This document shows, one piece after another, positions 8,161-10,332 of a stretch of 64,000 bases of DNA. Origin of the DNA: Neophaeotheca triangularis (taxonomy: Eukaryota); NCBI GenBank assembly GCA_054600435.1, contig BAAIJX010000007.1:434001-498000 (forward strand), read 5' to 3'. Each line of letters begins with the position of its first letter. Position 1 is the stretch's first letter. The translations under genes were made by a program, and so were the position numbers. The notes under the pieces were generated by a model. That model worked only from the letters and a program-made list of their open reading frames with translations. It ran no database searches and had not been told where the DNA came from.

Positions 8161-8832
8161 GTGCGGTCAGGGATTGGTTTGTGACGTGGGGTGGCTACCT
8201 TCGACTTCTTTTTGCACTGGTTGCAGCTCTCTCTAGGGTTAGCGATCAGAAGGCAAAAGACGAGCATGGGTATGGGAATGTCTGTGGAGTCGTCTGGCGC
8301 TCTTTCGGTATGCGTGCATAATGATAGGCTGGGGGCACACGTATATCACGATGGGCAAGAATTGAGGTGGCGTTTACGGGACTTGCATTGATGGCCGACA
8401 TGGGTTGCAAGGGTTTATGGTTTGGCGTGGTGCTCATCCGATTATGGTTCGTATGTGGTGCAAGGGAGCAATTGGCAGCGTCTCTCATACTTCGTAGGAA
8501 TTAAGCCATTCGTAGCAGCGTGTATTAGTTCACTCGATCGTTTCACTCTACTGCTTCGTCTTGGCATATCGTCTGTCCCAGGCTAACCGGAAATGGCAGC
8601 GAGCCAGACGAGCTTGAAGTCCGCACAATGAGGTGGTCCGTGCGTCTGGAAGTTCGACCGGCAGCACCTCGCAAAGCTTCACCCATTTCACGAGAAAGGT
8701 CACTTGTTGCCGCCCACCACCGCACCCGACCCTTCACACTCCCACCGACACCACCACTCATCTCCGCCCGCTCGTCAACTTGACTCCATACCTTTCACCC
8801 TCAAAGCAAAAGGAAGCCGTCCAACCACAAAG

Positions 8833-9679
8833 ATGGATCACGAGAAGCTGGCCCGTATGCAAAATGCTGTGCGCATCGGTATGTCAGCTACAAACGCCGT
8901 ACCGCTGCTCAATTGTTCCGCAGTATGGCCCCACGAAAATATTGAGATGCTAACAATGCTGCAGGGTAAGCCTTCACCGTCCCCCATGACCCCCTTCCAG
9001 TCGTTCCGGCACCGACCGCCATGAAACATACAATTACACTCCGAGCGGCGCGCACACCTGCCGAATGCGCCAAGTGGAGTTAAGGCAGCGGTAAATAATG
9101 ACGGAACTGACAAAATACGATACAGCGGCAAGGGTACTCCCCGCAGAAAGGTGAAGAAGGTCAACAGGAACTCGGGCGCCGACGACAAGAAGCTCCAGGC
9201 TACGCTCAAGAAGATGAACGTGCAGCCCATCCAGGCCATTGAGGAGGTCAACATGTTCAAGTCGGACGGCAACGTCATCCACTTCAGCGCGCCCAAGGGT
9301 AGGTTTCCACACATCCTTTGAAGGAGGAAGTCGGCGGCTGTCTGCACTCGCAGCGCGCAACTCTCCTGCCAAGCAAGAAGAGAGAACGGTCAGCTAACCG
9401 AGGCGCCCGTTTGCTTACTGTACAGTCCACGCCTCGGTCCCCTCCAACACTTTCGCCCTCTACGGCAACGGTGAGGACAAGGAGCTCACCGAGCTCGTCC
9501 CCGGCATCCTCAACCAGCTCGGCCCCGACTCGCTCGCCAGCCTGCGCAAGCTGGCCGAATCCTACCAGAGCCTGCAGAAGGGCGGCGAGGGCGAGGAGGG
9601 TAAGAAGGACGACGATGACGACGAGATACCCGACTTGGTCGAGGGCGAGAACTTCGAGAGCAAGGGCGACGTCGAGTAA
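8833..9679 (+). CDS. EGD1: Nascent polypeptide-associated complex subunit beta (BTF3)
   Basis: Exons 8833-8878, 8965 (1 nt), 9126-9298 and 9426-9679 give [27 protein letters not shown]...[27 protein letters not shown]...[19 protein letters not shown]. Confidence 0.93.
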
Positions 9680-10332
9680 GAATGTTCCCACATCTTCTCT
9701 CTCGACACACCACACAGACTTCGAAGCAAAAGGGGGAATGAGACTTTGTTGAATGGCGGGTGCGTCATGACAGAGGCGCATGTGCTTACGGATCGGCTGT
9801 TTTTTCTCGCTGCGGCTTTCTCTGCGCTGCGCTTGAAAGTTGCAAAGGCACTTGCGTGAGCCGGTTCATTCGGATGGGCGTTTTGCGAGCTGTCGTGGGC
9901 AGGCTATCACTTTCTGTGCATAGGGCTCGAGCGTTGTATACTAGATACTCCGCAAAAATGCAAACACGTTACTCACGACCTAGCAATGATATGACGTGAT
10001 CAAGGGGTAGTCTTGTGGTGGAGTAGGGAACGGTGTAATGGCAGATGTTCTCAAGTGAGCGAAATAAATAAACGACTTGGCGGATGGAGTGGACTTTGAG
10101 GAACTGGCAACATATGACAGCCATGAAAAAGCGGGTATCTCAAAAAGCAAACGAAGAAGAGCAAACCGTCCATCTAGCCACCCACACCATCCACCACTCT
10201 CGAAAAGGCAAGGAAAGCAACTGCTGTAAGCAAAACCATCATGAAACCCACCACACAGCCATCAACATCGCCACCACTGGCAAGCATTCAGCCAGCAGAC
10301 CACACCGGCCACACCTCTGGCTCAGTCGCACA

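What the first reader, a model, noticed from the sequence alone, without database searches (positions are those of the whole stretch)
8833..9135. Single-nucleotide exon in EGD1 (NAC-beta)
Seen: exon 1 ends ...CGC ATC G|GTATGT (donor 8879). A full intron follows with branch GCTAAC and acceptor CAG (8962-8964), then ONE base (G8965), then a canonical donor GTAAG (8966). The next intron ends CTGAC...TACAG| and coding resumes C GGC AAG GGT. Only G+G+C restores the RIGGKG motif, which is conserved in NAC-beta (established). Direct exon1-exon3 joining frameshifts, and I saw no nearby alternative AG that repairs it. Inference: a functional 1-nt exon requiring ordered or sequential splicing. Such exons are very rare and are usually missed by gene predictors. 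Skipping would give a frameshifted message, a possible autoregulatory switch.
Basis: partly seen in the sequence, partly recalled or inferred. Interest (0 to 1): 0.85.

Follow-up and report, generated by a model that had tools for sequence, protein, structure and literature searches.

The report
One-base exon in fungal NAC-beta gene
The gene for a common ribosome-associated chaperone subunit (NAC-beta) in this fungus really does contain an exon just one base long, the same layout is kept in many related moulds and lichen fungi, and most public gene models get it wrong.

Summary
The core interpretation holds.

- **Gene layout.** Exon 1 (8833-8878) ends ATC G. Intron 1 (8879-8964) has GTATGT, CTAAC and CAG. 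G8965 stands alone. Intron 2 (8966-9125) has GTAAGC, CTGAC and CAG. Exon 3 starts at C9126.
- **RNA evidence.** Contigs from three runs of three studies read ATCGG then CGGCAAG. That is the G+G+C glycine codon of RIGGKG.
- **Assembly check.** A second DNA sample of the same organism has no indel and no change at any splice signal.
- **Orthologues.** All 69 metagenome loci that hold the whole interval keep G|GT...YAG-G-GTRNG...YAG|N, while the rest of the intron sequence is unconserved. Six cDNA-like contigs from other species have exactly one GGN codon at this spot.
- **Taxonomic spread.** The nearest named proteins place these loci in Dothideomycetes, Eurotiomycetes and Leotiomycetes, and probably Lecanoromycetes.
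- **Annotation.** Only 18 of 166 NCBI-sourced NAC-beta models read RIGGKG.
- **Not shown.** Splicing order and any regulatory skipping were not demonstrated.

One-base exons are already known in Arabidopsis APC11, Fusarium CYP621A and Coprinopsis. This is therefore a new and unusually widespread member of a known kind.

The parts
8833..8878 (+). Exon 1 coding part: ATG to ATC G ([15 protein letters not shown] plus the first base of the Gly codon)
   Evidence: Sequence and translation. The X5 RNA contig covers 8715-8879.
8879..8964 (+). Intron 1, 86 nt: donor GTATGT, branch-like CTAAC at 8950-8954 (A8953, 11 nt before the 3' end), acceptor CAG at 8962-8964
   Evidence: Sequence. The same elements occur in 54 of 54 distinct orthologous intervals; median length is 89 nt.
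8965..8965 (+). Exon 2: a single G, the middle base of the Gly codon G-G-C
   Evidence: RNA contigs hold exactly one extra G between 8878 and 9126. The base is G in 54 of 54 distinct intervals.
8966..9125 (+). Intron 2, 160 nt: donor GTAAGC, branch-like CTGAC at 9107-9111 (A9110, 15 nt before the 3' end), acceptor CAG at 9123-9125
   Evidence: Sequence. Donor 2 is GTAAG in 41 of 54 distinct intervals; median length is 142.5 nt.
9126..9298 (+). Exon 3: C, then GGC AAG GGT ... ([11 protein letters not shown]... and the first part of the NAC domain)
   Evidence: Translation, Pfam PF01849 at E 3.5e-16, BTF3 chains in the PDB.
9299..9425 (+). Intron 3, 127 nt, an ordinary GT..AG intron
   Evidence: Joint 9297->9425, GT..AG (cut +1), in X3, X4 and X5.
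9426..9679 (+). Exon 4 coding part, to the stop codon TAA at 9677-9679
   Evidence: Translation. RNA contigs cover it.

Best explanation
G8965 is a real, constitutively used exon of one nucleotide in the NAC-beta (EGD1/BTF3) gene of a dothideomycete fungus. Two ordinary U2-type introns, 86 nt and 160 nt long, lie on either side of this single G. Each has its own GT donor, CTRAC-type branch site and CAG acceptor. One glycine codon (G-G-C, the first Gly of RIGGKG) is therefore assembled from three exons.

The acceptor of intron 1 and the donor of intron 2 are one base apart. Two spliceosomes cannot plausibly sit there at once, so the introns are most likely removed one after the other. This resembles a recursive-splicing ratchet point that keeps one base. 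The order is unknown.

The arrangement is old. It is shared by several classes of Pezizomycotina.

Shown here: the gene layout, the mRNA sequence and the conservation. Inferred: sequential removal.
For: 1. **Sequence.** All splice signals are at the stated places.
2. **RNA.**
   - The joint 8878->9125 ('skips 246', one position of slack) appears in X3 (1 contig, depth 6.2) and in X4 (1 contig).
   - The X4 contig is 295 nt and lies on 8860-8878, 9125-9297 and 9425-9527 with 0 mismatches.
   - The X5 contig covers 8715-8879 and then continues with the first 16 bases of exon 3.
   - These runs belong to three studies. All read ATCGG|CGGCAAG, one base more than a direct 8878-9126 joint.
3. **Database protein.** P0003 (157 aa, from a 931-nt contig) reads ...[12 protein letters not shown].
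4. **DNA control.** X2 is a second sample of the same organism, with a 9591-nt contig at depth 116. It covers 8700-9850 with 9 substitutions and no indel. None of the substitutions falls in a donor, branch or acceptor motif or at 8965.
5. **Orthologues.**
   - Of 80 metagenome loci, 68 (by script) plus L065 (by eye) hold the whole interval. All 69 show G|GT...YAG-G-GTRNG...YAG|N.
   - Of 54 distinct intervals (53 metagenomic plus the window), 54 have AGGGT. In 53 of them a YTRAY motif lies 5-45 nt before both acceptors.
   - The third codon base varies (C 21, A 18, T 15), while the lone base is always G.
6. **Conservation profile.** Only AGGGTAaGc and the outer splice sites are conserved. The rest of the interval shows no conservation.
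7. **cDNA-like contigs.** Six from other species have exactly GGA or GGT between the RI and GKG codons. One of them, L039, matches the genomic loci L064 and L072 at 96-98% in the exons.
Against: - No intermediate with only one of introns 1 and 2 removed was seen, and no lariat or branch-point data were available. Only assembled contigs could be laid, not raw reads.
- G8879 and G9125 are also G. The RNA alone therefore cannot distinguish a 1-nt exon from a single intron with non-canonical ends (GT..CA or TA..AG). The aligner in fact reports it as GT..CA.
- X4 is labelled RNA only as a guess.
- The orthologous loci are related to each other, so the 54 sequences are not 54 independent trials.
Confidence: 0.9

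Rival explanations
1. A single 246-nt intron is cut out at non-canonical ends: either GT..CA (8879-9124) or TA..AG (8880-9125). On this view the internal AG-G-GT is irrelevant.
For: The RNA joint is reported as 'skips 246, GT..CA', with one position of slack. This reading gives the same mRNA. No intermediates were seen.
Against: - It leaves unexplained why AGGGT, with a strong donor continuation and its own branch motif upstream, is kept in 54 of 54 distinct intervals. Everything around it has diverged, and the control intron shows AGGGT in 1 of 43.
- The interval is about twice the length of the ordinary intron 3 of the same genes (medians 89+1+142.5 nt against 95 nt).
- GT..CA and TA..AG are not known spliceosomal intron ends (established knowledge, not tested here).
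Confidence: 0.04
2. The two-intron layout is real and also acts as a gate. Failure to include G8965 (a direct 8878-9126 joint) gives a frameshifted, early-terminated message. The cell uses this to tune the NAC-beta level.
For: Skipping gives a stop after 24 codons. One transcript-like contig of a relative (L011) has intron 3 removed but intron 2 still present. This hints that this region is spliced more slowly.
Against: - No contig with the skipped joint was found in three RNA runs.
- All six cDNA-like contigs of other species include the base.
- No sequence beyond the splice signals is conserved. There is no Rfam match and no unusual fold (z +0.63).
- Contigs drop rare isoforms, so absence is weak evidence.
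Confidence: 0.1
3. The main product uses the alternative donor GT at 8883 with the acceptor at 9125, giving RIGIGKG. Several public gene models in other fungi are annotated this way.
For: This junction is in frame and canonical GT..AG in the window. Ten NCBI-sourced models of other species read RIGIGKG (8 and 1; P0240 and P0288, of which one may overlap that count).
Against: The RNA contigs of X3, X4 and X5 read ATCGG|CGGC, not the form that is 3 nt longer. P0003 and 27 other non-NCBI proteins, mostly from short transcript-size contigs, read RIGGKG. BTF3 in solved structures aligns from its residue 22 with the GKG of exon 3; that a Gly precedes it in BTF3 is my recollection of the human sequence, not a tool result.
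Confidence: 0.02
4. A base is missing from the assembly at an exon boundary, and there is really one ordinary intron.
For: None found.
Against: An independent DNA sample (X2, depth 116) has the same sequence with no indel. All 69 orthologous loci, from many assemblies, share the layout.
Confidence: 0.01

Closest known systems
Single-nucleotide exon of Fusarium CYP621A P450 genes (Nelson and Syed 2026, PMC12940212; abstract, Results and Discussion read)
   Same: Fungal and spliceosomal. The motif is the same AG-G-GT. The lone G is the middle base of a glycine codon in a conserved motif. A phase-1 boundary meets a phase-2 boundary. It is supported by orthologue alignment and by transcript reads.
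   Different: That case is a rarely expressed P450 in one genus (20 orthologues). This one is a housekeeping ribosome-associated chaperone subunit. It is shared by at least three, and probably four or more, classes of Pezizomycotina.
Single-nucleotide exon of Arabidopsis thaliana APC11 (Guo and Liu 2015, PMC4674806; abstract and Discussion read)
   Same: A constitutive 1-nt exon between two GT-AG introns. The authors also argue for intron definition with one-after-the-other removal.
   Different: It is in a plant. It was proven by reporter constructs and base substitution, which has not been done here.
Thirteen 1-nt exons in the long-read annotation of Coprinopsis cinerea (PMC12230235; passages read; the held supplements carry no gene list)
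   Same: They show that 1-nt exons occur repeatedly in fungi and break gene models when missed.
   Different: It is a basidiomycete. The genes are not named in the text I could read, so I cannot tell whether NAC-beta is among them.
Recursive splicing at ratchet points, also called zero-nucleotide exons, in Drosophila and mammals, and in Cryptococcus neoformans BOT1 (bioRxiv 10.1101/224170; passages read)
   Same: A juxtaposed acceptor and strong donor (YAG|GTAAG) lie inside a long intervening sequence that is removed in two steps.
   Different: A ratchet point leaves no base behind. Here one base stays and is coding.
Spliceosomal twin introns (stwintrons), including the alternative [D1,2]/[A2,3] type whose internal introns overlap by one G (Fekete et al. 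2017, PMC5587772; abstract and passages read)
   Same: They occur in Pezizomycotina. Two introns are removed consecutively at one spot, and intron positions lie 1 nt apart.
   Different: In a stwintron, one intron interrupts a splice signal of the other. Here both introns are complete, and they are separated by one G rather than overlapping by one.

Membership tests
Spliceosomal single-nucleotide exon | The mature RNA holds exactly one base more than a direct joint of the flanking exons | tested here: met
   X3, X4 and X5 read ATCGG|CGGCAAG. P0003 reads RIGGKG.
Spliceosomal single-nucleotide exon | In the genome, that base lies between an AG acceptor and a GT donor, and each flanking intron has a complete set of signals | tested here: met
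   (sequence); branch-like motifs lie 11 and 15 nt before the two acceptors.
Spliceosomal single-nucleotide exon | The element is conserved in orthologues while the intron sequence drifts | tested here: met
   69 of 69 loci and 54 of 54 distinct intervals. Control: 1 of 43.
Spliceosomal single-nucleotide exon | It is not an assembly or sequencing error | tested here: met
   the second DNA sample, X2, has no indel and no change at the signals.
Spliceosomal single-nucleotide exon | The base in the mRNA derives from that genomic base, and two separate splicing events occur (shown by mutation, lariats or intermediates) | not testable with these tools
   Only contigs were served. No contig with just one of introns 1 and 2 removed was seen.
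Stwintron (spliceosomal twin intron) | An internal intron interrupts the donor, branch or acceptor of an external intron, which becomes functional only after the first excision | tested here: not met
   both introns have intact GT, branch motif and AG. Definition taken from PMC5587772 and PMC8469720 (abstracts).
Recursive splice site (zero-nucleotide exon) | The acceptor AG is directly followed by the donor GT, so that no base is retained | tested here: not met
   one G lies between AG and GT, and it is retained in the RNA. It works like a ratchet point but is not one.
NAC-beta / BTF3 / EGD1 | A NAC domain, and an N-terminal basic RRK..KK stretch after RIGGKG | tested here: met
   PF01849 at E 3.5e-16. 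BTF3 chains at E about 4e-16, aligned from residue 22. [11 protein letters not shown].

The most novel reading that the evidence does not exclude
This may be the oldest and most widespread one-base exon yet seen. On this reading it was fixed before the classes of Pezizomycotina split and has been kept ever since in a highly expressed housekeeping gene. It persists because obligatory two-step splicing at this spot acts as a gate: missing the base gives a frameshifted, decay-prone message. That would tie NAC-beta output to spliceosome capacity or to NAC itself.
Probability: 0.1. Interest if true: 0.8.

Novelty: new member of a known kind. Interest (0 to 1): 0.62.

Why it matters
[quoted passage not shown] This one sits in a conserved, well-expressed gene. 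It is present in Penicillium-like, Aureobasidium-like, Sphaerulina-like and Oidiodendron-like genomes. Broken gene models suggest it is also present in Aspergillus, Botrytis, Sclerotinia and many others. Genetically tractable fungi could therefore be used to ask how a spliceosome handles an acceptor and a donor one base apart, and in which order.
- **Annotation.** Only 18 of 166 NCBI-sourced NAC-beta models examined read the conserved RIGGKG. The rest insert, delete or lose residues right next to the ribosome-binding N-terminus, or lose exon 1 altogether. A simple rule would repair them: where a phase-1 boundary meets a phase-2 boundary, look for AG-N-GT.

Tried and rejected
- **Whole genome of the window:** not held.
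- **Splicing intermediates:** none with only intron 1 or only intron 2 removed was seen in the laid contigs or among the 80 loci. These are contigs, so this says nothing about the order of removal.
- **Skipped isoform (8878 joined to 9126):** not seen. Again, only contigs were available.
- **snoRNA or other RNA family in the long intron 2:** no Rfam match up to E 1 on 8600-9900.
- **Special RNA fold across 8860-9140:** minimum free energy -73.9 kcal/mol, z +0.63 against shuffles, so nothing unusual.
- **Stwintron reading:** rejected, because both introns are complete.
- **Earlier notes of this scan:**
  - Nothing on this genome or on this protein.
  - A word search gave unrelated or unverified 1-nt-exon candidates in Naegleria.
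- **Coprinopsis supplements:** no list of the 13 genes with 1-nt exons in the files held. One file was too large to read.
- **Sordariomycetes, yeasts and basidiomycetes:** no genomic locus could be reached. Whether they share the element stays open.
- **Literature on a NAC-beta 1-nt exon:** none found in the searches. These cover open-access PMC and bioRxiv only.

Full report
**1. What is in the sequence**

Reading 8500-9900 confirms every coordinate of the finding.

- The ATG is at 8833. Exon 1 reads [15 protein letters not shown], followed by one G at 8878.
- GTATGT starts at 8879. GCTAAC is at 8949-8954. CAG is at 8962-8964.
- G8965 stands alone.
- GTAAGC starts at 8966. CTGAC is at 9107-9111. 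CAG is at 9123-9125.
- Exon 3 starts at C9126 and continues GGC AAG GGT, which translates as [11 protein letters not shown]....
- Exon 3 ends at G9298. Intron 3 is 9299-9425. Exon 4 runs from 9426 to the TAA at 9677-9679.
- The coding sequence is 46+1+173+254 nt, which gives 157 codons plus the stop.

**2. The gene**

- The exon 3 peptide matches the Pfam NAC domain PF01849 (E 3.5e-16).
- It aligns end to end with human BTF3 chains of ribosome-NAC structures, starting at BTF3 residue 22.
- The best database hits are NAC-beta proteins of Dothideomycetes and Eurotiomycetes. Ramularia collo-cygni has an N-terminus identical as far as ...[12 protein letters not shown].
- The window therefore comes from a dothideomycete of the Mycosphaerellales/Capnodiales kind. 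This placement is inferred from protein similarity only.

**3. Does the RNA hold the extra base?**

I laid the contigs of four runs on 8700-9850.

- X3 (metatranscriptome) and X4 (labelled RNA only as a guess) each have one contig with the joint 8878->9125. The joint is reported as 'skips 246, GT..CA', with one position of slack.
- The X4 contig is 295 nt long. It lies on 8860-8878, 9125-9297 and 9425-9527 without a mismatch.
- X5 has a 181-nt contig on 8715-8879. It then continues with 16 letters that are the start of exon 3 from 9126.
- All three runs, from three studies, therefore read ATCGG followed by CGGCAAG. This is one base more than a direct 8878-9126 joint and is exactly the predicted Gly-Gly.
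- The aligner places the extra G on G9125 or G8879 because those bases are also G.
- The database protein P0003 (157 aa, 100% identical over exon 3, from a 931-nt contig) reads ...[12 protein letters not shown].
- No contig shows the skipped joint.
- No contig shows only one of introns 1 and 2 removed.
- No contig shows the RIGIGKG alternative.

**4. Is it an assembly slip?**

X2 is a second DNA sample of the same coded organism. It covers the whole stretch in one 9591-nt contig at depth 116.

- It has nine substitutions and no indel.
- Five substitutions lie in introns 1 and 2 (8940, 8975, 9015, 9055, 9056), one in intron 3, one in exon 4 and one in the 3' untranslated part.
- None touches a splice motif or 8965.

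**5. Other ways to keep the frame**

A script listed every single GT..AG intron that keeps the frame into exon 3.

- There are 32 of them.
- None gives RIGGKG.
- The nearest uses the second GT of GTATGT (8883) with the acceptor at 9125 and gives RIGIGKG.
- Direct skipping of G8965 gives a stop after 24 codons.

**6. Orthologues**

One metagenome scan, using an alignment of the exon 3 peptide with homologues, returned 80 loci. These were the best 80 of 399 confirmed hits.

- Sixty-eight loci hold the whole interval between the RI codon and the GKG codon in genomic form by script. L065 does so by eye.
- All 69 read G|GT ... YAG-G-GTRNG ... YAG|N.
- There are 54 distinct intervals: 53 metagenomic plus the window.
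  - All 54 contain AGGGT. Forty-eight contain it exactly once.
  - In 53 of 54, a YTRAY motif lies 5-45 nt before both acceptors. The exception, L016, has ATAAC there.
- Intron 1 has a median length of 89 nt (range 52-487). Intron 2 has a median of 142.5 nt (range 66-302).
- Donor 2 is GTAAG in 41 of 54 intervals. Donor 1 is GTAAG in only 6 of 54.
- The third base of the codon is C in 21, A in 18 and T in 15. The lone base is always G. This is what a GGN codon predicts.
- In a profile anchored on the lone base, only AGGGTAaGc stands out of unconserved sequence.
- As a control, intron 3 of the same genes contains AGGGT in 1 of 43 distinct sequences, 4604 nt in all.
- Six loci are cDNA-like (L026, L039, L044, L046, L068, L071). 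Each has exactly GGA or GGT between the two codons.
- L039 matches the genomic loci L064 and L072 at 96-98% in the exons. This gives a second genome-and-transcript pair.
- Five loci are cut upstream.
  - L005 and L042 still show the AG-G-GTAAGC element.
  - L011, L041 and L054 break off inside intron 2 and cannot be judged.

**7. How widespread is it?**

Proteins spliced from the loci were compared with named database proteins. The comparison was made only against the 43 named proteins that I picked by hand.

| Loci | Nearest named protein | Identity |
|---|---|---|
| L002, L003 | Penicillium atrosanguineum | 99% |
| L020 | Sphaerulina musiva | 100% |
| L051, L059, L064, L072, L074 | Aureobasidium melanogenum | 100% |
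| L025, L031, L042 | Epicoccum | 99% |
| L048, L053 | Exserohilum | 99% |
| L043, L057, L069, L076 | Ophiobolus | 99% |
| L063 | Oidiodendron maius | 98.6% |

- The exon 4 peptide of L078 is closest to Stereocaulon and Lepraria, at 90%.
- The element is therefore seen in DNA of Dothideomycetes, Eurotiomycetes and Leotiomycetes, and probably Lecanoromycetes.

Public gene models give indirect evidence for a wider spread. I looked at 166 NCBI-sourced cluster representatives, listed by hand (73+36+57).

- Eighteen read RIGGKG.
- One hundred and three keep exon 1 but read something else at exactly this spot. Examples are RIGKG, RIGIGKG, RIGTGKG, RIGEGKG and inserts of up to dozens of residues.
- Forty-two lack exon 1 or have another N-terminus.
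- Three lack the core motif.
- The wrong models include Aspergillus, Talaromyces, Exophiala, Botrytis, Sclerotinia, Erysiphe, many lichen fungi, Orbilia, Rhizina and Kalaharituber.
- By contrast, 34 non-NCBI proteins keep exon 1, mostly from short transcript-size contigs. Of these, 28 read RIGGKG (covering the proteins).
- Broken models only suggest the same layout. They do not show it.
- No Sordariomycete appeared in any list, so that class remains open.

**8. Mechanism**

Shown:
- Two complete intron signal sets abut one G.
- The G is in the mRNA.
- The layout is conserved.

Inferred:
- The acceptor of intron 1 and the donor of intron 2 are one base apart. The two introns are therefore most likely removed one after the other by intron definition. 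This resembles a recursive-splicing ratchet point that keeps one base.
- Either order yields the same product, and the sequence does not favour one. The strong GTAAG bias of donor 2 recalls ratchet points.
- One transcript-like contig of a relative, L011, has intron 3 removed while intron 2 is still present. This is a weak hint that the region is spliced late.
- No Rfam family and no unusual fold were found in the interval.

**9. Comparison with what is known**

- *Fusarium CYP621A.* Nelson and Syed 2026 (PMC12940212; abstract, Results and Discussion read) describe a 1-nt exon in Fusarium CYP621A. It has the same AGGGT motif, and its lone G is also the middle base of a Gly codon. They call it the first in a fungal gene.
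- *Arabidopsis APC11.* Guo and Liu 2015 (PMC4674806; abstract and Discussion read) proved one in Arabidopsis APC11. They argued for one-after-the-other removal of the flanking introns.
- *Coprinopsis cinerea.* The long-read annotation (PMC12230235; passages read) lists thirteen 1-nt exons without naming the genes in the text or in the supplements I could read.
- *Cryptococcus neoformans.* Recursive splicing around a zero-nucleotide exon is reported in this fungus (bioRxiv 10.1101/224170; passages read).
- *Stwintrons.* These are defined by one intron interrupting a signal of the other (PMC5587772; abstract and passages read). That is not the case here.
- *NAC-beta itself.* I found no paper describing a 1-nt exon in NAC-beta, in the searches. 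These cover open-access PMC and bioRxiv only.

**10. Verdict**

- Ordered splicing is plausible but not shown.
- The autoregulatory idea has no support so far (about 0.1).
- This is a new member of a known, very rare kind. It stands out for its breadth across Pezizomycotina, for sitting in a housekeeping gene, and for the scale of misannotation it causes.

Noticed in passing
L011:1-560: This transcript-like metagenome contig has a protein 99% identical to that of Ramularia collo-cygni. Intron 3 is spliced out, but at least the last 128 nt of intron 2 are still present. It may be a partly spliced pre-mRNA.
   Followed up: partly
L012:170-600: In this relative, whose protein is 96% identical to that of Neohortaea acidophila, exon 1 is split by an extra intron between ...KLAR and MQNAARIG. 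The Gly-codon region then lies between three introns within about 300 nt.
   Followed up: no
window 8879-8884, and proteins P0012, P0035, P0100, P0140 and others: The recurrent wrong model RIGIGKG is explained by the second GT inside the donor GTATGT, which is in frame with the true last acceptor. The model RIGKG is explained, where the third codon base is A, by a second AG two bases downstream (CAG-AG).
   Followed up: partly
proteins P0085, P0093, P0120, P0151, P0176, P0185, P0188-P0190, P0277: Several public models fuse NAC-beta to a neighbouring gene, giving 330-850 aa proteins with extra Pfam domains. This may be a knock-on effect of the unsolvable junction.
   Followed up: no
L030:514-559 and L045:1213-1258: Two loci carry a 4-residue insertion (SRQE or SKQE) in exon 1, just before VRI. 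They keep the one-base exon.
   Followed up: no
window 8632-9024: The exon 1 reading frame stays open through all of intron 1 and 59 nt into intron 2 (130-aa stop-to-stop ORF). This is probably chance, but it is the kind of read-through that some public models annotate.
   Followed up: no
L078, L028, L002/L003: In a few lineages one or both of the flanking introns are much longer than usual for these fungi: intron 1 is 487 nt in L078, the two introns are 305 and 302 nt in L028, and 203 and 260 nt in L002.
   Followed up: no
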